64,000 nucleotides of DNA from Octopus sinensis. Lineage: Eukaryota. A program made the position numbers and the translations under genes. The notes under the pieces were generated by a model. The model saw only the letters and a list, made by a program, of their open reading frames with translations. It was not told where the DNA came from and made no database searches. The stretch lies in assembly GCF_006345805.1 (NCBI RefSeq), contig NC_043020.1, forward strand, positions 25,234,001 to 25,298,000, written 5' to 3'. Of this stretch, positions 1,544 through 60,120 are shown piece by piece (position 1 is the stretch's first letter; each line of letters opens with the position of its first letter).

Positions 1544-3020
1544 AGTCCACTGTTTGCGCCTCGGCACCTGGAGGAACAAGCCGATATCGTCCAGTGTTGT
1601 TTTGGACACTGGACAGATGGTCCTGTTAAATTGCTTGGAGTTTGGGTTGGTTCAGACTCCCAGACGGAGAAAAATTGGAGCGAGGTAGTGACCAGGTAGA
1701 GCCATAGTTTGGGAGTGGTCCGAAGGCATCTTTTCTTGAAAGGGAGGGCGGAGGTGTACAGGTGTTTATAGCATCTGTAATCACACTAGCGCTCGACTGT
1801 CGTGCCTTGCCCCCGATTTTGTGGCTAAGCAAGTTGGATTCGACTCCTTTTCCGCTTTTGTGGAGGGAGGAAAGCCACTTGTAAGGCGCTCCGTGTGTTG
1901 CCAGGAACCACTAAAGGGTGGGCTGGGGATGCCTTGGTTAATGATGCGCAGGCATGCGCTGAGACTGAGACATCTCTGGTTTCACCTGGAAGGTGATAAG
2001 GTGGGGAGTCCGCTGGCAGATAATTTCTTCCCGCAACCGGACTCTATGGAGAGATTTAAACCCGGTTTCATTAAAAGACGGAACCTGACTTTATGGCAGA
2101 AAGAGTGCCGACAGGCACTCTGGCTGATCCACAAGATAGGCAAAGCCGGCTGGGAATACCACCTCGACATTTTATAGAAGGATGGTAGAGGCAAAAAATG
2201 ACGACGTCCTAAGAGGGGCTCTGGGGTTCGATGAGGATCAACTATCCGACCTGTTTAAGAAGACTTTCAAGCCGGGGTATTTGGACAATTACCAAAAATC
2301 CCTGACTTGGCAGTGCTATAGGAATGCTCTACCTGTTCGCGATAAGTTATATAGGCATGGAATGTCAGTGCCACCGACATGTCCAAGATGTGGGTTGGAC
2401 GATGAAACCGTCCAGCCGTTTTGTACATTGTCAGGAACTGTCAGGCTTAATAAGTTACGTAGAACACGTGTTGTCGCATCTGGACGAGTACAGCTATCGG
2501 CTGGTTATCTATATAAAGATGATACCGCCAGCTGGACTCTCAAAGAAGGTGAGGCTTGTTTTCACTGCTACGGTGGCAGTAACTGAAAAGGTGTGTGTGG
2601 AGAACTAGATTGGAAGGTTTGGTGTCAGGAACCTTTGTCTCTGGATATGGTATGTTAAAATACTTCAGATACCATCTAAAGAGCAAGATGGATTTAGAGA
2701 AGAGGAACCTGACACAGAAAAAGTATGTGAATCGATGGAAGGATGTGATAAAAAAAGGTGGGTGTGAGTAACCTGCTTGGTCATCATGAAGGGAGAAAAT
2801 AGTCTCTGGGCTCTTAGGCTGTCGGGTAAGAATCCTGACTGTGATATACCTAGCTGGCCAAATTCATTTTTAATTTAAAAAAAAAAGGAGAAAAGTAAAG
2901 TCTAGTATCATAATCAATAATCAACATATGTAAATATCAAACGAACAACGTAAACTTTTTGTAATTATGTTTTGTTGTAAGTCTATCTCTGTAAGATTTT
3001 ATAATCATAATAAAGATTAG
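1544..3020 (+). mobile_element. Tx1/L1-clade LINE 3' portion (ORF2 C-terminus, frameshifted)
   Basis: VKLLGVWVG, PLKGGLGMP and WQCYRNALPVRDKLYRHG..CPRCG..DETV (zf-RVT-like). Homologous to the ORFs at 22503-23129 and 59133-59894. AATAAA at 3009-3014. Confidence 0.85.
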
Positions 3021-3680
3021 GAAGCGACACCTACTGGCTGGCTACGCTGCATTGAAAAGGGGCAATACTCCGAAACGCGTCTGTAGCTGCCGGTCAAGTA
3101 GTGTGGAGCGACTGACCTCCTTGTTCGAAGGTTATATGGATACAGTTTGTGTATCAAATAGCTAAATTAAGGCGATGGCTCATGGAGCTAATAAGCGGAC
3201 AGCTTTTTTCTTATTTTTATAAGAATGCCATATTAGTATGGCGATAACTATTATTTCCGGGAACGCTGCCGCTGTTCTCTTTTAGAGAGACTTAGTTATT
3301 TTAATATTCTATTATTGAAAACAAGTGGATGTATTCCACCGAAACTAGGTAAATAAAACCATCGAACAGAGATGTCGGAAGCGACACCTACTGGCTGGCT
3401 ACGCTGCATTGAAAAGGGGCAATACTCCGAAACGCGTTGTAGCTGCCGGTCAAGTAGTGTGTGCAGCGACTGACCTCCTTGTTCGAAGGTTATATGGATA
3501 CGTTTGTGTATTCAAATAGCTAACTTAAGGCGATGGCCTCATGGAGCTAATAAGCGGACAGCTATTTTCTTCTTTTTATAAGAATGCCATATTAGTATGG
3601 CGATAACTATTATTTTCCGGGAACGCTGCCGCTGTTCTCTTTTAGAGAGACTTAGTTGTATTTTAATACTGATATTATAT
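3021..3680 (+). repeat. About 1.8 units (period about 357 bp) of the HHR-containing retrozyme-like repeat
   Basis: Same sequence as the 49989-51463 units. HHR motifs at 3046-3087 and 3403-3443. Ends in (TA)n. Confidence 0.9.
3046..3087 (+). ncRNA. Type I hammerhead ribozyme, U3-A8 variant
   Basis: GCUGCA UUGAAAA GGGG CAAUA CUCC GAAAC GC GUC UGUAGC. Confidence 0.8.
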
Positions 3681-5588: not shown

Positions 5589-8155
5589 TTAGGGTTATGA
5601 CTTTTTCACAAGCTAATACTGTAATTTGATGAATAATTTCCTAAAAATAAACTAACATTTATTTTGCTTCATTTCAAAAAGCACCAACTTAAGAATTCAG
5701 TCACTGTTTTTGACCCCAATCATGCAATATTCTAGTGGGGTTCATAATGCCTGTTCAAGTTTTTACCAAACTTGATGTCCTGACTCAATGCAATGCAGAA
5801 AGAGTATATCTGAAATTTCAGCTTTCTAATTGAAGTAGTTTCGGTGTTATGGAATTTTAAAACTATAATCACCAGGTGGCGCTTGATTAACACTTCAGTA
5901 TTTCTGTTGCCTAAATCCTTGTAAACGCAAGAGAGATGTGGAATAAAAGTGTATTTATACATTTTAAAAATTACTGAATTGAAATTGCTTTATGCAAATG
6001 TTCAAAACTAGACTATTTTAAGACAGAGGCCACTACAAGCATTCGATAACATAAAAATTAACAACAATACATATTTTTAACTTTATAGGTTTAATTCCAA
6101 TTTTATATAACTGTGTAAGAAAAAGGGTGCTGAATGTTAGGAAATGTTTAAACATGACAAAGAATTAAAATGTTTTGTTAGATAATATAGATCGTAGCTG
6201 AAGTTTCTCCTACTAATTACAAACACCATAAAAATCTTGAAGGCACTTGATTGCCCGTTCTGCATCCTGATTTGTTCTGGAAATTTCCAGTTTTGATGGT
6301 TGTCGACTCAAAAGTTTTTTAAAGAGTTCAATGTTTTTTCATGAACTTGCAGGCTACCACATAACTCCTGATAATCATGTGCATTGAACATTTGGTCAGT
6401 AAACCAAATATCTGCCCAGAGATAATCGACTAACATTGAGAAGCAAAAATCTTTCCTCTGGTAGAAGAATAAACGCCAAAAGAGCTGGTATTGCATGATA
6501 ATTCCATTTTGCATTACTTAGGTTGGGTATTTTTTGAAACTTTACAGTAGGAAATTTGCTGGTTTCTTCAAAAAAACGAAAAATTTTGGTCAAATGAAAT
6601 AGAAATGTCATGTCATCTCGCCATCCTGCTGATTCAGTAATCTTTTCTTCACCGTTGTTGAAATTAGCCTGGAGTTTCTTGAAATCATTTAGAAGCTCTG
6701 GGATGAATGTATATTCAATATTGGGAGATTACTTTTTTCTCTGAGTTCCTTATCCATTACAACACGAAGATTTCCATCAAGGATATGATGCTGACAACCA
6801 ATAAATTGTGGTTCTTTCAAACCCTTTTGAGCAAACTTTTTGCAACTGAATGATAATGCCATTTCTTTTCCTAGTTTTCGCACTCATTACATCAGCGACA
6901 ATCATCTTTACACAGTTCCATAAATTATATTCATCTAAAACAGCTGTTATTTCTTTCACAACAGTATCGGCTTTTCCGTTTGGTAATTGGAGTGCTTCTA
7001 ACTTAACTTCTCACTGTTCGTTCTTTAAAACTAGCGCTTGGTATTCTTGGTAACCAATACGTTTACCATCAAAATGCAATGACCAGTTTTCTAAATGTAG
7101 TGGTTTCTTCATCTTCTTTTTTAGTTTAACATCTTCTTTGATAGTCGATCTGTAAATACTAGATTGGGAAGGAGTCTCGACATTGATTCCATCTTGAGAT
7201 AATTGTCGACAAACTGTTGCTGCTTTTTGGCTTGATAGCTTGGAAGATATTACCAACTTGGTTGCAGTTCCAGTTTTGCTATACTTCCTCCTTGTTTGTA
7301 TAGATTCTTCGTCTCATTTTTCGGACTCTTGATATTCACATTCAGTCTTTGCTTCAGACGTTGACGGTGACACTGGAGTTGCTCTGGTTGAAGTTGACAT
7401 TAAGGACACTTTTCTTCTTTTGGATGGATGAATAGCTTTGGAACTGGCTGCCTTTCCAGTTGCATACCCAACCTGCCCCTTGCTTTCAATCTGAAGATAA
7501 TATAACATTCTATCCTCACTGCACAGCCATTCACCGTTTTCCTTTGTGGTGTCAAAAATTCCTTTAAATGTTTCCTCGTTTCACACATTTGCCGTAGCAC
7601 TTTTCTACTTTTTCATGATAAATATGAGAAATTTGGTTTCTTTTACCATAAAAAGTTACTTCTTTCGAAATTTCCTTTGTTCTTTTTTTCCTTCCTTTGA
7701 CAGAACCTCCAAGGAATAGGTAGCGACAAACAATTTGAAGTTTCATTGGAATCCTGAAGTTGTTTTCCAAAGAATGATCTTCTAGAAGAGCAGTTCTTCT
7801 TTTTCTATGTGAGCTTGAAATTGTACGAGATTCTTCGTCCAGATTTTTTTTTTGCTTCTTTGAGTGACACAAACACTTCACTTGTGAGACAATATTTTAG
7901 ATACTCTAGTTGGATAGGCCTACTATTCTGAAAAACAGTTGATATAGTCAGTCAGAGTTTTTAGTGTCACAGAAATAAAAAGGAGAGGAAGAGAATATTT
8001 CCTAAAGTAGGGCCTAAGTGGTAATAAATTAAAAACTCTATAACTCACAAACTGCTTAAACTTGAAAGCTGAAATTTGAGATATCCTGCTTCTGCTTTGC
8101 ATTAAGTCAGCACACCAAGATCTTCCCATTCAGTGTCAGTTGCTTAAAAGCTACA
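5589..8155 (-). mobile_element. Decayed hAT-superfamily (hATm-like) DNA transposon
   Basis: Minus-strand fragments WSLHFDGK, IVADVMSAKT (degenerate DTTxxNT), FIGCQHHILD (CxxH), SNAKWN. Left end TTAGGGT. Subterminal inverted repeats at about 5770-5860 and 8030-8120. Many frameshifts. Confidence 0.7.
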
Positions 8156-36169: not shown

Positions 36170-36898
36170 ATTAATAGTTATCGCCATACTAATATGGCAG
36201 TCTAAATATAAGACTAAAGCTGTCGCTGATTAGCTCCAAGAGGCCACCGCCTCTAGCTAGCTATATGACACACGAACCTGCGTCCATTATAAACCTTCGA
36301 ACAGGGGAGGTCAGCCGCTTCACCTTGCTAGTCAGACATCTGCAGATATGTGTCAGGGTTGTTGCCCTTTATCAATGCAGCGTAGTCAGAACCAGCAGGT
36401 GTCGCTACTGACGTCTGTTCGAAGGTTTTATTTACCTAATTACAGTGGAATATTATTAGTATGGCGATAACAATTAATATCCAGTAACGCTGGATATTAA
36501 TCTCCTTTAGAGAGACTTAGTAATTTTAATATTTCTATTATTGAAAACAAGTGGATGTATTCCACTGTAACTAGGTAAATAAAATCTTCGAACAGATGGT
36601 CAGTAGCGACACCTGCTGGTACTGACTACGCTGCATTGATAAAGGGCAACAACCCTGAAACATGTCTGCATATGTCTGACTAGTAAAGGTGAAGCGGCTA
36701 ACCTCCCCTGTTCGAAGGTTTATAATGGACGCAGGTTCGTGTGTCATATAGCTAGCTAGAGGCGGTGGCCTCTTGGAGCTAATCAGCGACAGCTTTAGTC
36801 TTATATTTTGACTGCCATATTAGTATGGCGATAACTATTATATCCAGTAACGCTGCCGTAATCTCCTTAGAGAGACTTAGTAATTTTAATATTTCTAT

Positions 36899-36900
<2 letters not shown>
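36170..36900. repeat. Divergent subfamily of the retrozyme-like repeat: inverted partial copy (36170-36455, minus) joined to about 1.2 direct units (36455-36900, plus)
   Basis: Shares GCCATATTAGTATGGCGATAAC, AGAGAGACTTAGTAATTTTAATATTTCTATT and GAAAACAAGTGGATGTATTCCAC with the 50 kb array. (TA)n on both sides. Confidence 0.9.
36631..36671 (+). ncRNA. Type I hammerhead ribozyme, U3-A8 variant
   Basis: UGCA UUGAUAA AGGG CAACAA CCCU GAAAC AU GUC UGCA; stem III palindrome ACAUGU. Confidence 0.8.
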
Positions 36901-36941
<41 letters not shown>

Positions 36942-49803: not shown

Positions 49804-50104
49804 AGTATGTATGTATGTATGTATATGTCTGAGTTTTTCCCCCCAACATCACTTGATAACCGATGCTGGTGTGTTTACGTCCCTGTAACTTAGTTCGGCA
49901 AAAGAGTCTATAGAATAAGTACTAGGCTTACAATGAAATTAGTCATGGCGTCGATTTACTCGACTAAAGGCGGCGCTCCAACATAGTTACTTAGTAATTT
50001 TAATATTTCTATTATTGAAAACAAGTGGATGTATTCCACCGAAGCTAGGTAAATAAAACCTTTCAACAGAGATTGTCAGAAGCGACACCTACTGGTCTGG
50101 CTAC

Positions 50105-50146
50105 GCTGCATTGAAAAGGGGCAATACCCCGAAACGCGTCTGTAGC
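50105..50146 (+). ncRNA. Type I hammerhead ribozyme (U3-A8), copy 1
   Basis: GCUGCA UUGAAAA GGGG CAAUA CCCC GAAAC GC GUC^UGUAGC; predicted cut after 50140. Confidence 0.85.
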
Positions 50147-50466
50147 TGCCGGCCAAGTAGTGTGGAGCCACTGACCTCCCTTGTTCAAAGGTTATATGGA
50201 TACAGTTTGTGTATCAAATAGCTAACTTAAGGCGATGGCCTCATGGAGCTAATAAGCGGTCAGCTTTATTCTTATTTTTATAAGAATGCCATATTAGTAT
50301 GGCGATAACTAATATTTTCCGGAACGCTGCCGTTGTTCTCTTTTAGAGAGACTTAGTAATTTTAATATTTCTATTCTTGAAAACAAGTGGATGTATTCCA
50401 CCGAAGCTAGGTAAATAAAACCTTTGAACAGAGATTGTCAGAAGCGACACCTACTAGTCTGGCTAC

Positions 50467-50508
50467 GCTGCATTGAAAAGGGGCAATACCCCGAAACGCG
50501 TCTGTAGC
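50467..50508 (+). ncRNA. Type I hammerhead ribozyme (U3-A8), copy 2
   Basis: Identical motif; predicted cut after 50502. Confidence 0.85.
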
Positions 50509-50829
50509 TGCCGGCCAAGTAGTGTGGAGCCACTGGCCTCCCTTGTTCAAAGGTTATATGGATACAGTTTGTGTATCAAATAGCTAACTTAAGGCGATGG
50601 CCTCATGGAGCTAATAAGCGGTCAGCTTTATTCTTATTTTTATAAGAATGCCATATTAGTATGGCGATAACTAATATTTTCCGGGAACGCTGCCGTTGTT
50701 CTCTTTTAGAGAGACTTAGTAATTTTAATATTTCTATTCTTGAAAACAAGTGGATGTATTCCACCGAAGCTAGGTAAATAAAACCTTTGAACAGAGATTG
50801 TCAGAAGCGACACCTACTAGTCTGGCTAC

Positions 50830-50871
50830 GCTGCATTGAAAAGGGGCAATACCCCGAAACGCGTCTGTAGC
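50830..50871 (+). ncRNA. Type I hammerhead ribozyme (U3-A8), copy 3
   Basis: Identical motif; predicted cut after 50865. Confidence 0.85.
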
Positions 50872-51192
50872 TGCCGGCCAAGTAGTGTGGAGCGACTGAC
50901 CTCCCTTGTTCAAAGGTTATATGGATACAGTTTGTGTATCAAATAGCTAACTTAAGGCGATGGCCTCATGGAGCTACTAAGCGGTCGGCTTTATTCTTAT
51001 TTTTATAAGAATGCCATATTAGTATGGCGATAACTAATATTTTCCGGGAACGCTGCCGTTGTTCTCTTTTAGAGAGACTTAGTAATTTTAATATTTCTAT
51101 TCTTGAAAACAAGTGGATGTATTCCACCGAAGCTAGGTAAATAAAACCTTTGAACAGAGATTGTCAGAAGCGACACCTACTAGTCTGGCTAC

Positions 51193-51234
51193 GCTGCATT
51201 GAAAAGGGGCAATACCCCGAAACGCGTCTGTAGC
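51193..51234 (+). ncRNA. Type I hammerhead ribozyme (U3-A8), copy 4
   Basis: Identical motif; predicted cut after 51228. Confidence 0.85.
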
Positions 51235-51459
51235 TGCCGGCCAAGTAGTGTGGAGCGACTGACCTCCCTTGTTCAAGGTTATATGGATACAGTTTGTGTA
51301 TCAAATAGCTAACTTAAGGCGATGGCCTCATGGAGCTACTAAGCGGTCGGCTTTATCCTTATTTTTATAAGAATGCCATATTAGTATGGCGATAACTAAT
51401 ATTTTCCGGGAACGCTGCCGTTGTTCTCTTTAAGAGAGACTTAGTAATTTTAATATTTC

Positions 51460-51508
<49 letters not shown>

Positions 51509-55269: not shown

Positions 55270-56886
55270 GTACGTATGTATGCATACTCATCAAAATCCC
55301 TTCACCAAATGATCTTAAACTAAGACCGATAATAGCAGGGCCAGCATGTGAAACTCACCGCCTCAGCAATTTCTTAGACACACTGCTTAAACCTTTCCTA
55401 AAACACATCAAAAGCTACGTAAGAGACGATATAGATATGCTGAACCACCTCCCTAAAACAGTCAATGAGAAAACCCTTCTAGTATCATTCGACGTAGTTA
55501 ATCTTTATTCTAACATCCCTCACAACCTAGGAATAGAAGCGATCACCTTCTGGCTGAATAACTACCCCTTTGAACTCCCAACTCGCATAAACAAAGACCT
55601 TATATAGAAGGACTTAGATTCATTTTAGAGAACAATTATTTTATTTTTGACAATGATTTCTACAGACAAAGATCGGGAACAGCGATGGGCACGCGTACTG
55701 CACCATCTTTTGCCAACCTAGTGATGGGATACCTCGAGAAAATACTATACCGGATAACACTCGAGAAATATGGAAACACCTTCGCCACCTATATCCATAA
55801 CAACTGGAAAAGATACCTCGATGACTGTTTCATCATCTGGGACAAAGGTATAGAGAAACTTGAGGAATTTAAAATACTATTAAATGGAATAAATGACAAT
55901 ATACAATTCACGATGGACCACAACGAAAAAGATTACCATTTTTAGACATCCTCATTAAGAAAACCGGCAACAAAATAGAGACAGATATCTACTATAAACC
56001 GACAGACTCTAAACAGTACCTACCCTTTGATTCATGCCACCCACGACACACTAGAATGAATGTTCCTTTTTGTTTAGCTAGAAGGATTTGCACCATAATA
56101 TCAGACACAAACACCCGACACACACGTCTCCAGGAACTTAGAACTACACTCACAAATAGAAACTATCCACAGCCCCTAATATACAGTGCAATCCAACGGG
56201 TACTTAAATTAAGTATAGAAGACCTGAGACAAACAAAACTAAAAAAGAAAGAACAATTAAAAACCCTTCCCTACATCTCTACACACAACACACTCAACAA
56301 TGAGGCCTTCAACACCATACTACAAAGCACAGCCCTACTAAAGGGAGACCCAAAGATGAACCGGATCCTCGAAACACACACCATCATTAAAAGTAAACGG
56401 CAACCAAAATCCTTGAAAAGGATTTTAACCCAAGCTACACTGCACTCAACATCAACCACAAAACCAGCAGTTAGAAAATGTGGAAGGCCCAACTGCGGAA
56501 TCTGTGTCATCTTGAAAGAAGGATCAGAATTTATACTGGAACAAAGCCACCAGTTCACCATTAGAACAAACTTCACCTTCGCATCAGAAAACTTAATTTA
56601 CGTCATAACATGCGCAGGCTGCAATAGGCAGTATATAGGCCATACAAAAAATAGCTTACGTAACAGGATGGCGGTGCATAAATCACAAATTAGAAACCCT
56701 GATTACCGCAAAATACCGGTCAGCGGACACATAGATAGATGTGCTGGAAATGTAAATCCGAAATTTACAACTAACCCGCTCTATAAATTCAGTGACAACG
56801 CAACCTTCACACAACGCCAAAATAAAGAACTGTATTTCATAAAAAAATTTAGACCAAGTTTAAACACCCTGGGCCAGGAATATTAA
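55270..56886 (+). pseudogene. PLE reverse transcriptase / GIY-YIG polyprotein (disrupted)
   Basis: ORFs 55245-55607, 55685-55945 and 56056-56886 joined across frameshifts. Confidence 0.9.
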
Positions 56887-57039
56887 AACAAAAGATAAGT
56901 CCTCCGAAAAGGAGAAGCAAAATTCCACCACGGCCGCTACCTTAAACAGTCACTCGCACTGACGGAAATATGCCTTAGTAAAAAAGGAAACAAATTCTTT
57001 CGCGCAAATCTGACCCTGATGGACTGACCACATACGATA

Positions 57040-57728
57040 CAGCTAAGGGTCAGACCCGATTCTGATTGGTCAACACGCTGATGACATCTAGTTCTGCTAG
57101 AATGGACAGGATACAAACAGGGGGCAGAGATTAGTCAGAATATTGATGACGTACCTTTCTGCTTGACTAGTCACCTAACAAAATACAGACAGGGGGCAGA
57201 GCTAATGCAGCTATAAGCCGTGATTGGGCAGAATCTTGATGACGTCCCGTTCTGCTTGACTAAGCCACCTAACGAAACGACTGGTCAAAACAGGATACAG
57301 ACAAGAGGCAGTTATAATACAGCGATAGGTCACGATTGGTCAGAATGTTGATGATGTCCCGTTCTGCTTGACTAAGCCACCTAACGAAAAGGGGCAGATC
57401 TAATACAGCTATAAGTCGTGATTGGTCAGAATCATGATGACGTACCGTCCTGCTTGACTAAGCCACCTAACGAAAAGGGGCAGATCTAATACAGCTATAA
57501 GTCGTGATTGGTCAGAATCATGATGACGTACCGTCCTGCTTGACTAAGCCACCTAACGAAACGACTGGTCAAAACAGGAAACAGACAAGAGGCAGTTATA
57601 ATACAGCGATAGGTCACGATTGGTCAGAATGTTGATGACGTACCGTTCTGCTTGACTAAAGCCACCTAACGAAACGATTGGTCAAAACGTTGATGACGTC
57701 ACGCTACGCTGGACTGACCACCTAACAG
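57040..57728 (+). repeat. Tandem 80-110 bp repeats with ATTGG (CCAAT) and TGATGACGT motifs
   Basis: About 8 copies of GATTGGTCAGAAT..TGATGACGT..CTGCTTGACTAAGCCACCTAAC. Confidence 0.9.
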
Positions 57729-57732
57729 GCAT

Positions 57733-57765
57733 TATAAAACCCGAACAATTCACAAAACTCACTAG
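57733..57765 (+). promoter_or_regulatory. Putative Pol II core promoter (TATA + Inr) in the PLE pseudo-LTR
   Basis: TATAAAA at 57733-57739; TCACT with the A at 57761, 28 nt after the TATA start. Confidence 0.5.
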
Positions 57766-58041
57766 AATCACCCAGCGAACACCTACCATGGGTCATCACA
57801 ATTGCTCAAGGTAAAAATGAATTCCTCGCTCTTTCGGGAACATCAATCTTCTGTATTGACTGCTTTCCACCACTTTGATCTGTTTTTTTGTATTGAATAC
57901 GTATCGCCACTGCATCGAACACTTTGAACATATAGCATGAATGAACTTACTTCAAACTATATTTGAACTTTAAGATGTCTGACTCCGTTGTGTATTATAA
58001 ATGAATTTCTTGTGTTTGACGGCATGAGCTGTCTTTTTTTA

Positions 58042-58100
58042 TATATAACTTTTTTTGATAAGGTTCATTTCAGGAACTGAAACATGTTATAATGTATATA
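58042..58100 (+). ncRNA. Minimal type I hammerhead (U3-A8) in the PLE pseudo-LTR
   Basis: UUGAUAA GGUUC AUUUCAG GAACU GAAAC AU GUU AUAA; stem I weak and AU-rich. Confidence 0.65.
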
Positions 58101-58192
58101 TAAAACTTAAAAATTGTATAATATAGCAGCATTTTCGAACTTCATTTTTTACAAATATATACCTATTCGTATACGAGCTAATCCTATTATAA

Positions 58193-58225
<33 letters not shown>

Positions 58226-58302
58226 TAAGGGTAGAAATTGATATTTATCAATTAAGACCAGTGGTCTAGCATATTAAAAAAGAATCCGAAGATTAAAATA
58301 TT

Positions 58303-58602
58303 TATATATACCAATTAAGGACTGAACACGAAAAGTGGACAGTCAACATGCTAGATAAAGACGTCAAATCGCCATTCACCACAAAAGATTCTGTTCTCAG
58401 ATCAAACTCAACACAAAACCATAGCAATAAACAAGTGAAAAATATACGAATTTTATTTCGTATATTTTTCACTTGTTTATTGCTATGGTTTTGTGTTGAG
58501 TTTGATCTGAGAACATAATCTTTTGTGGTGAATGGCGATTTGACGTCTATATCTAGCATGTTGACTGTCTACTTTTCGTGTTCAGTCCTAAATTGGTATA
58601 TA

Positions 58603-58750: not shown

Positions 58751-60056
58751 GTTTCTTTATTGGCCACACAGGGCTGCACACAGATGGGACAAGTTACAAG
58801 GTAGAGCTTTTCTTTTGGGGGATGAAAAAAAAAACACAAAAGAAAAAAAAAATAAATAAATAAAATAAAAAATAAAAAGAATAAAAAGAAAAATAGAAAA
58901 AGAAAAGGAACAAAAGAAAAGAGAAATGAAAAAAGAAGAAAAAAGGGGAAAAAAGGGGAAGAGGAAAAAAAAAGAACGATCAATAGGGATCGTGTATCAC
59001 AGTGTTATGATATATGGTGTAAAGGGGAAAGCAAGTAAGGTTTATCCGTGGGAAGAAAAGCCTACGAAAAAGACCACGGTAACCTTGGTCAATATTGTTA
59101 TATGTTACCACATTTGTTTTCAATTTCTGGGTTCATAGGATTATGCTCAAGGTGGCTTCGTCATTCATACGTTCCATCCTTGCTACATTCACCCATCTTT
59201 TTTTAAAACATTCGCTAGACAAAACTTGCCTCTCTACTCTCACTTTTCTTTTCAAGTGGTACTTGAAGAAGTTGATGAGAGATTGACCAGAGAGGAAAGT
59301 GTTTGTCTCCAATCCTTTCAGACACGTCCACCAGATACATTCTTTCGCCATAGCCACAAGGATGATGAAAATAGCTCTTCCTTCCCGTTTGAAAGAAGGA
59401 GGCGTGACAATATTCACGATAGACTCAGCTGATAAACCGACTCGTCCCACACGTGACAGCAGTTGTTCGACACAAGCCCACAGGTCGGAAATTGTTGGAC
59501 ACTGCACGAGTGCGTGCAGAACAGTTTCGTCGCTCTGACCGCATCTCGGGCAGGTCGGCCCCGTGTTTCTCGAGCCGTGTCTGTAGAGCTTATCCCGAAC
59601 GGGTAGCGCTTCTCGGTAACACTGCCAGGCCAGGGATCTCTGGAAGTTGTCCATGGGCCCTGGCCCGAAAGTCGTCCTGAACAGGCGGGTCAGGTACTCC
59701 TCGTCGACGTCCAGGTTCGCCCCGAGCTCGTCGTCGTACCTCCCCTCCACTAATCCCCTATAGAATGCTTTGGTTGTGTTGAAGTCACTCAAGGTCGACC
59801 CAGAACGGCAGAGTTGCTTGAGAGCAACGCGACACTCGCGGTGCCATTCGCCCTTCCTCGGCCTCTTTTTGATCCACGACTGCAGTTCGGTCATGGAGAC
59901 GAACTACGGGAAAGCGTGCCTCACAAACGGCGACCACACCTGTTCACCGTCGTCTACATAGAGCCAGAGATGTCGCAGTCTCAGCGCGTGTCTGCGCATC
60001 ATCAACCACGGCATGCCCAGCCCTCCTTTTAACGGGTGTTGACAGCAAGGTCAACC

Positions 60057-60057
<1 letters not shown>
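58750..60057 (-). mobile_element. 5'-truncated Tx1/L1-clade LINE flanked by (GATA)n
   Basis: ORF 59133-59894 has CPRCGQSDETVLHALVQC; PLKGGLGMP upstream; AATAAA followed by (TATC)n on the minus strand. Confidence 0.92.

Positions 60058-60120
<63 letters not shown>

What the first reader, a model, noticed from the sequence alone, without database searches (positions are those of the whole stretch)
55270..58195. Candidate autonomous partner: a Penelope-like element whose pseudo-LTR carries the same U3-A8 hammerhead
Seen: downstream of the RT/GIY-YIG ORF, on the same strand, is UUGAUAA-GGUUC(7 nt)GAACU-GAAACAUGUU (58055-58088), with the same core and palindrome as the 36.6 kb retrozyme. The element also ends in (TA)n. 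Established: PLE pseudo-LTRs carry minimal type I HHRs. Inference: a PLE lineage with U3-A8 HHRs gave rise to or mobilises the non-coding arrays. This copy is disrupted.
Basis: partly seen in the sequence, partly recalled or inferred. Interest (0 to 1): 0.7.

Follow-up and report, generated by a model that had tools for sequence, protein, structure and literature searches.

The report
Penelope retrotransposon beside hammerhead RNA repeats
A broken copy of a young Penelope-like retrotransposon carries the same ribozyme core variant as nearby non-coding repeats, but it shares no other detectable sequence with them and is only one of at least three such families in this genome that could be copying them.

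Summary
Window 55283-58195 is a 5'-truncated, twice-frameshifted copy of a young Neptune-type Penelope-like element (family F1). The U3-A8 hammerhead motif at 58055-58088 is family-wide (597 genome matches, control 0), F1 copies end in (TA)n, and intact copies exist.

The specific link to the retrozymes is weak. A retrozyme profile finds no F1 pseudo-LTR; its nearest relative is a C3-G8 retrozyme family in the same genome. U3-A8 is scattered over the PLE RT tree and was already described in Schistosoma PLEs. A second PLE family (F2, 1029 matches) also has U3-A8 and (TA)n ends, and a Hydra-like family with C3-G8 also ends in (TA)n.

So 'gave rise to' is not supported. 'Mobilises' is plausible: the retrozymes show PLE-style (TA)n ends and inverted 5' pieces, and F1 looks youngest. 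But nothing singles F1 out (about 45%). A PLE-retrozyme partnership is already proposed in print. Side finding: a slippery U-UUU-UUA/G site sits in the ORF1/ORF2 overlap in 10 of 10 two-ORF elements examined, predicting a -1 frameshift.

The parts
55283..56886 (+). 5'-truncated RT-GIY-YIG reading frame (ORF2, residues ~225-765 of the intact 765-aa protein), broken by two 1-nt deletions near 55605 and 55933
   Evidence: intact relative P0001 from L040
56478..56510 (+). CX4CxxC linker motif (KCGRPNCGIC) before the GIY-YIG domain, as in Neptune/Nematis PLEs
   Evidence: compared by eye with Fig. S2 rows of PMC8557442
57129..57720 (+). Imperfect tandem repeats with ATTGG (CCAAT) and TGACGT motifs; likely promoter region of the pseudo-LTR
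   Evidence: promoter role inferred
57733..57739 (+). TATA-like box (TATAAAA)
   Evidence: function inferred
57808..57812 (+). Likely splice donor AAG|GT
   Evidence: contigs of runs X3 and X13 leave the homologous copy L162 exactly at this site (position 1167) for 255 and 178 unrelated letters; RNA status of those runs is a guess
58055..58088 (+). Minimal type I hammerhead motif with U3-A8 core, 5-bp stem II, palindromic stem III (ACAUGU), predicted cut after GUU at 58088; weak proximal stem I
58162..58195 (+). Optional 34-nt tail: family copies end either at 58161 or at about 58195, both into (TA)n; in 5' pseudo-LTRs the sequence runs on into ORF1
36172..36901 (.). Non-coding retrozyme insertion: ~361-nt unit on + (hammerhead at 36636) preceded by an inverted piece, (TA)n on both sides
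49989..51463 (+). Retrozyme array, 4.1 units of 363 nt, U3-A8 core UUGAAAA, ends in (TA)n
3010..3680 (+). Retrozyme dimer of the same subfamily as the 50 kb array (hammerheads at 3052 and 3409), ends in (TA)n; ends approximate

Best explanation
This is a broken, 5'-truncated copy of a young Neptune-type Penelope-like family (F1) with a family-wide U3-A8 hammerhead motif; it is likely not the parent of the nearby retrozymes, and is one of at least three (TA)n-ending PLE families that could copy them in trans. Shown: intact F1 copies are pLTR-ORF1-ORF2(RT-EN)-pLTR, end at two sites 34 nt apart, and sit in (TA)n. Inferred from known PLE biology: the RT-endonuclease nicks (TA)n, starts reverse transcription inside the RNA, and leaves truncated, partly inverted copies. 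Inferred for the retrozymes: a separate ~360-nt RNA lineage with a strong hammerhead is cut and likely circularised, then inserted by some (TA)n-cutting PLE protein, which gives more-than-unit copies, inversions and (TA)n ends. My odds for the mobiliser: F1 45%, F2 30%, Hydra-like or unsampled PLEs 20%, non-PLE 5%. The shared U3-A8 pair is most likely a repeated switch at a position that only needs to pair.
For: PLE identity: Pfam RVT_1 and GIY-YIG; Neptune-like RT and linker motifs (by eye). Both frames intact in L163 and L166. No descent: retrozyme profile (40 stretches) hits 5 of 30 C3-G8 loci at E 1.9e-11 to 8.2e-6 over 140-280 profile positions and none of 7 F1-type PLE targets at E<=10; F1 pLTR profile (42 sequences) has best E 1.2 on 45 retrozyme stretches. 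U3-A8 is scattered: 6 of 27 labelled outside loci are U3-A8, 20 C3-G8, 1 A3-U8, mixed within supported clades; 3 of F1's 4 nearest labelled relatives are C3-G8. Rivals: F2 (about 45% protein identity to F1) has U3-A8, 1029 matches and (TA)n ends; F3 has C3-G8 and (TA)n ends in 3 of 3 printed copies. PLE-style retrozyme insertions: (TA)n at two preferred ends in 11 of 15 hits (some share an array); both strands present in 6 of 10 and 17 of 29 loci, F1 3 of 11.
Against: F1 and the retrozyme account for about 2900 of the 4036 hits of the generic U3-A8 pattern, and F1 looks youngest (nearest-neighbour identity 0.99, against 0.97 retrozyme and 0.92 F2; n = 13, 15, 12), which favours F1 for recent copies. 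With the core masked, the C3-G8/U3-A8 retrozyme similarity falls to E 0.002-0.24 in one direction and to 0 of 40 at E<0.01 in the other, so that kinship leans on the hammerhead region. An old origin from an F1 ancestor could have decayed beyond detection. The tree is a quick one (SH-aLRT only) on labels from my own motif scan.
Confidence: 0.72

Rival explanations
1. F1 is the dedicated mobiliser of the U3-A8 retrozymes, and the shared core reflects co-adaptation, for example recognition by the F1 protein or heterodimer formation through the ACAUGU palindrome.
For: Same 7-nt core and palindrome as the 36.6 kb subfamily; both abundant and young; both have CTATTAT just before (TA)n at one or more ends; a Poseidon hammerhead needed its own protein to cut (PMC11167929).
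Against: The 50 kb subfamily has another N7 and palindrome; ACAUGU is also the commonest palindrome among listed C3-G8 hits; F2 shares UUGAAAA with the 50 kb subfamily; no direct F1-retrozyme junction in 238 own-genome loci, and the two adjacent cases are split by microsatellite.
Confidence: 0.15
2. The retrozymes are derived from the pseudo-LTR of F1 or its ancestor, as reported for Xenopus retrozymes.
For: 24 of 57 Xenopus retrozyme families match TEs, nearly all PLE termini (10.64898/2026.07.22.740005); shared core and target here.
Against: No match by blastn at word size 7 (best E 0.62, AT-rich) or by profile; the retrozyme lacks the repeats, TATA and donor of the F1 pLTR; its nearest relative has C3-G8.
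Confidence: 0.07
3. The F1 motif is a decayed or non-cutting relic, and the match to the retrozyme says nothing about function.
For: Weak proximal stem I and a GUU site; fold no better than shuffles; uniformity among young copies reflects recent expansion; PLE minimal hammerheads cut poorly in vitro (PMC4209133).
Against: Sister families keep stem II with different sequences (GGUU/AACC in L158, GGUUUU/AAAACC in L157), and the core recurs at the same place in outside relatives.
Confidence: 0.25

Closest known systems
Neptune-clade Penelope-like elements (rows DrerioNep1, XtropNep4, Neptune1_Nv in PMC8557442 Figs S1-S2; killifish Neptune of PMC12602865)
   Same: RT followed by a cysteine linker and C-terminal GIY-YIG with CCHH; pseudo-LTRs; microsatellite targets; the killifish element also has an upstream ORF1.
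   Different: New family sequence (best database protein 58% identical). ORF1 is 466 aa and overlaps ORF2 in the -1 frame with a slippery heptamer. Clade assigned by motifs read by eye, not by a tree with named references.
Cercyon PLE minimal hammerheads of Schistosoma mansoni (PMC4209133)
   Same: Minimal type I hammerhead in the pLTR, including the U3-A8 core variant (about 1,300 hits reported there).
   Different: F1 has a 4-nt palindromic insert in stem III (ACAUGU), a 5-bp stem II and a mismatched proximal stem I.
Metazoan non-LTR retrozymes (PMC7229834; bioRxiv 10.64898/2026.07.22.740005)
   Same: About 360-nt non-coding units with a type I hammerhead, as monomers to arrays, in a genome with PLEs; PLEs already proposed as mobilisers.
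   Different: Here the retrozyme shows no homology to the pLTRs of the three PLE families examined, unlike many Xenopus families, and exists in both U3-A8 and C3-G8 forms.
Poseidon element PAc of Anolis (PMC11167929) and Penelope of Drosophila virilis
   Same: Two internal end points that define a 30-40 nt tail (34 nt in F1); promoter and splice donor in the pLTR.
   Different: Those have one ORF and no cysteine linker; PAc has a C3-G8 core.

Membership tests
EN+ Penelope-like element | RT plus C-terminal GIY-YIG endonuclease with CCHH motif | tested here: met
EN+ Penelope-like element | Pseudo-LTRs, partial tandems, inverted 5' pieces, optional tail | tested here: met
   L091 partial tandem; tail and inversions
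EN+ Penelope-like element | Intron at the pLTR / 5' UTR | tested here: inconclusive
   donor apparently used toward outside sequence; no joint inside the element seen in 4 runs of contigs
Neptune clade | CX2-5CxxC linker between RT and EN, C-terminal EN | tested here: met
   KCGRPNCGIC against Fig. S2 rows
Neptune clade | RT groups with named Neptune references in a tree | not tested
   no named reference proteins were available as tool sequences; the tree holds unnamed relatives only
Minimal type I hammerhead | Core N3-UGA-N-N8-A with 3-8 pair, stem II, GAAA, palindromic stem III, UH site | tested here: met
Minimal type I hammerhead | Stem I of 4-5 bp next to the core | tested here: not met
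   pattern |.||.||. from the core, with an AU-rich distal stem of -7.6 kcal/mol
Minimal type I hammerhead | Self-cleavage | not testable with these tools
   only assembled contigs were available
Autonomous partner of the retrozymes | Shared terminal or cis sequence beyond the ribozyme core | tested here: not met
Autonomous partner of the retrozymes | Same target and insertion signature | tested here: met
   (TA)n and inversions in both; (TA)n ends also in F2 and F3
Autonomous partner of the retrozymes | Only candidate in the genome with these features | tested here: not met
   F2 and F3
Autonomous partner of the retrozymes | Mobilisation in trans | not testable with these tools
   needs biochemistry or a cell assay

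The most novel reading that the evidence does not exclude
F1 protein mobilises in trans a circular hammerhead RNA that never came from its own pseudo-LTR: a viroid-like freeloader on a Penelope element, recruited by target microhomology or structure rather than shared ends. With intact F1 copies and thousands of retrozyme copies in one genome, this would be a directly testable PLE-retrozyme pair, in a PLE group whose RT is made by a conserved -1 ribosomal frameshift.
Probability: 0.3. Interest if true: 0.6.

Novelty: new member of a known kind. Interest (0 to 1): 0.3.

Why it matters
Which enzyme inserts animal retrozymes is proposed but, in the papers read here, not shown experimentally. This genome offers intact PLE frames and abundant young retrozymes with PLE-style insertion scars, so it could serve as a test system. 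It also warns against using the hammerhead 3-8 pair as a pedigree marker: the pair flips repeatedly in PLEs and within the retrozyme lineage itself. The window copy is one dead insertion among hundreds.

Tried and rejected
Rfam on the whole window gave only microsatellite-driven miRNA hits among the 150 of 237 rows shown; on the pLTR nothing; on the 36.6 kb element no hammerhead family. Sequencing runs: no RNA holder on record (the query also held about 450 nt of flanking DNA). Contigs of 4 guessed-RNA runs showed no joint inside the pLTR-ORF1 stretch and no pile-up of ends; on the retrozyme, contigs in 2 of 4 runs join unit end to unit start, which tandem DNA or circles would both give. Neither bears on cleavage. 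Chimera search in 238 own-genome loci: no direct F1-retrozyme junction. Folding of the 3' ends gave no structure above shuffles, so I dropped the idea of a shared end hairpin; the shared CTATTAT is short, AT-rich and next to the target. Age matching did not separate F1 from F2: best-hit identities are 98-99% for F1 ORF2, 92-96% for its pLTR, 94-97% for the retrozyme, 93-97% for F2, 88-97% for F3, each against one query copy. The L157/L159 sister family has U3-A8 but is old (best 87%). ORF1: one weak Pfam hit below cut-off and no Atlas hit. The ORF1 translation was one base out of frame, so it is used only to show where ORF1 DNA occurs. No earlier findings of the scan were returned. The Terminon paper was not held.

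Full report
Observation. The window holds RT and GIY-YIG reading-frame pieces at 55283-56886, then a repeat-rich region, a TATA-like box, a splice-donor-like site, the motif at 58055-58088, and (TA)n after 58195. A scan for hammerhead cores found that motif and the cores of three non-coding insertions at 3.05/3.41 kb, 36.64 kb and 50.1-51.2 kb. Genome-wide, the generic U3-A8 pattern has 4036 matches against 351 for the control, and the C3-G8 pattern 1668 against 121.

The element. Family copies join the window at 55283, so this copy is 5'-truncated. It has two single-base deletions against the intact copy L163. Intact 765-aa RT-EN frames occur in L036, L040, L043, L049 and L050 among the 36 loci scanned, and L163 and L166 carry an intact upstream ORF1 too. 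L091 is a partial tandem: ORF end, pLTR, ORF1, ORF2, pLTR. Copies end at two sites, window 58161 and about 58195, both into (TA)n; in an unselected set, 11 of 13 end there. That is the PLE tail described for PAc (PMC11167929, parts 1-2 of 4 read) and for rotifer Penelope (PMC3846280, passages). The RT and linker motifs match the Neptune rows of Figs S1-S2 of PMC8557442 (supplement part 54; compared by eye). The best database protein is 58% identical. I call this family F1.

The hammerhead. The F1 form has 597 genome matches, control 0, and 36 of 37 anchored sites in the 30 closest loci have UUGAUAA. Sister families keep stem II with other letters. Against activity: stem I next to the core is mismatched, the site is GUU, and the region folds no better than shuffles. 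The retrozyme hammerheads have 4-6 clean proximal pairs and arms of -16 to -25 kcal/mol. U3-A8 in a PLE hammerhead is not new: it was reported for Schistosoma Cercyon elements (PMC4209133, parts 1-2 of 4 read), the only paper returned for 'hammerhead' plus 'U3-A8'.

Did F1 give rise to the retrozymes? No sign of it. Blastn finds only (TA)n or short AT-rich matches. A profile of 40 retrozyme stretches finds none of 7 F1-type PLE targets at E<=10, but finds 5 of 30 C3-G8 loci at E 1.9e-11 to 8.2e-6. Those five are one non-coding family with a similar 3' end, and 4 of 5 end in (TA)n. The reverse search hits 37 of 40 U3-A8 retrozymes at E<0.01; with the core masked it hits 0 of 40 at that level, best 0.023. 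So this kinship leans on the hammerhead region, though the alignments run far beyond it. An F1 pLTR profile of 42 sequences gives at best E 1.2 on 45 retrozyme stretches. The simplest reading is that the 3-8 pair switched inside the retrozyme lineage.

Is U3-A8 a lineage marker? No. Of 87 outside loci, 27 had a sense-strand motif I could label (four further loci with opposite-strand or doubtful motifs were left out, as was L157 for short overlap): 20 C3-G8, 6 U3-A8, 1 A3-U8. On a quick RT tree (careful search unfinished, SH-aLRT only) they are mixed. In F1's clade (support 100) three relatives are C3-G8 and one U3-A8, and a C3-G8 row is sister to a U3-A8 row at support 95 elsewhere.

Could F1 mobilise them? 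The retrozymes carry PLE-style scars: more-than-unit copies, two preferred ends in (TA)n (11 of 15 hits), and pieces on both strands in 6 of 10 and 17 of 29 loci. The retrozyme hammerhead has 2315 matches. But F1 has company. F2, about 45% identical in protein, has its own U3-A8 motif (UUGAAAA), 1029 matches, and (TA)n ends in at least 6 of 12 loci. F3, Hydra-like by RT motifs, has C3-G8 and ends in (TA)n in 3 of 3 printed copies. F1 is the youngest by nearest-neighbour identity in small samples and the only one where I saw both frames intact, but I examined only 10 F2 and 6 F3 long loci. No direct F1-retrozyme junction was found in 238 loci; one F2 fragment abuts an inverted, diverged retrozyme-like piece with no microsatellite between (L322).

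Mechanism and what is known. Shown: anatomy, counts, ends, lack of homology. Inferred: target-primed insertion at (TA)n by a PLE protein, cleavage and circularisation of retrozyme RNA, use in trans. PLEs as retrozyme mobilisers were proposed in PMC7229834 (passages), and pLTR origin was argued for Xenopus in bioRxiv 10.64898/2026.07.22.740005 (parts 1-3 of 5 read; supplements not seen). Searches returned no description of this family pair; most subscription papers and Repbase are not covered.

Side finding. In 10 of 10 two-ORF elements examined (F1, F2 and 8 outside relatives; a ninth relative, L177, lacked a clear ORF1 and was left out), ORF2 lies in the -1 frame and an in-frame U-UUU-UUA/G heptamer sits 30-69 nt before the ORF1 stop. 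In 7 of the 9 that could be scored there is no Met before the first conserved ORF2 motif; F1 has one. No shared downstream structure was evident. This predicts a programmed -1 frameshift. The legend of Fig. 1 of PMC8557442 already notes an ORF1 separated by a frameshift for some PLE type (figure not seen), so it may be known.

Verdict. A real feature, a new member of known kinds, with the specific partnership unproven. Interest 0.3.

Noticed in passing
L163:3532-3613, L298, L168-L171, L174, L178, L192, L248: In-frame slippery heptamer U-UUU-UUA/G in the -1 overlap of ORF1 and ORF2 in 10 of 10 two-ORF Neptune-like elements; predicted programmed -1 frameshift.
   Followed up: partly
L322:1216-1640: An inverted, diverged retrozyme-like piece joined to an F2 3' fragment with 11 nt and no microsatellite between; a possible template-switch fossil pointing to F2. 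Single case.
   Followed up: partly
L127, L134, L137, L143, L153: C3-G8 retrozyme family related to the U3-A8 retrozymes, with similar 3' end and (TA)n targets.
   Followed up: yes
L162:1140-1167 (window 57780-57810): Contigs of two runs leave the pLTR exactly at the AAG|GT donor into unrelated sequence, suggesting pLTR-driven chimeric transcripts with host DNA.
   Followed up: no
L307:1849-5180 (reverse-complemented), L309, L311: Hydra-like PLE family F3 with an asparagine-rich insert before the endonuclease and a C3-G8 hammerhead with a very long, branched stem II.
   Followed up: partly
L299, about 5761-5811 (reverse-complemented): A further U3-A8 hammerhead-like motif with an ACCGGU palindrome, present as an inverted pair; family not identified.
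   Followed up: no
window 59133-60100 (-): 3' end of a LINE-type element (zinc-finger region, 256-aa frame) close to the PLE; type judged from recalled motifs.
   Followed up: no
window 58280-58600: Near-perfect inverted repeat of about 140-nt arms just after the PLE, MITE-like, followed by (TA)n.
   Followed up: no
window 30778 (-) and 15408 (-): Two C3-G8 core-like motifs with long stem II candidates; not examined.
   Followed up: no
L248-L253 and proteins P0030, P0039, P0060, P0074: PLE relatives filed under bacterial symbiont or MAG names, likely host-animal DNA in those assemblies.
   Followed up: no
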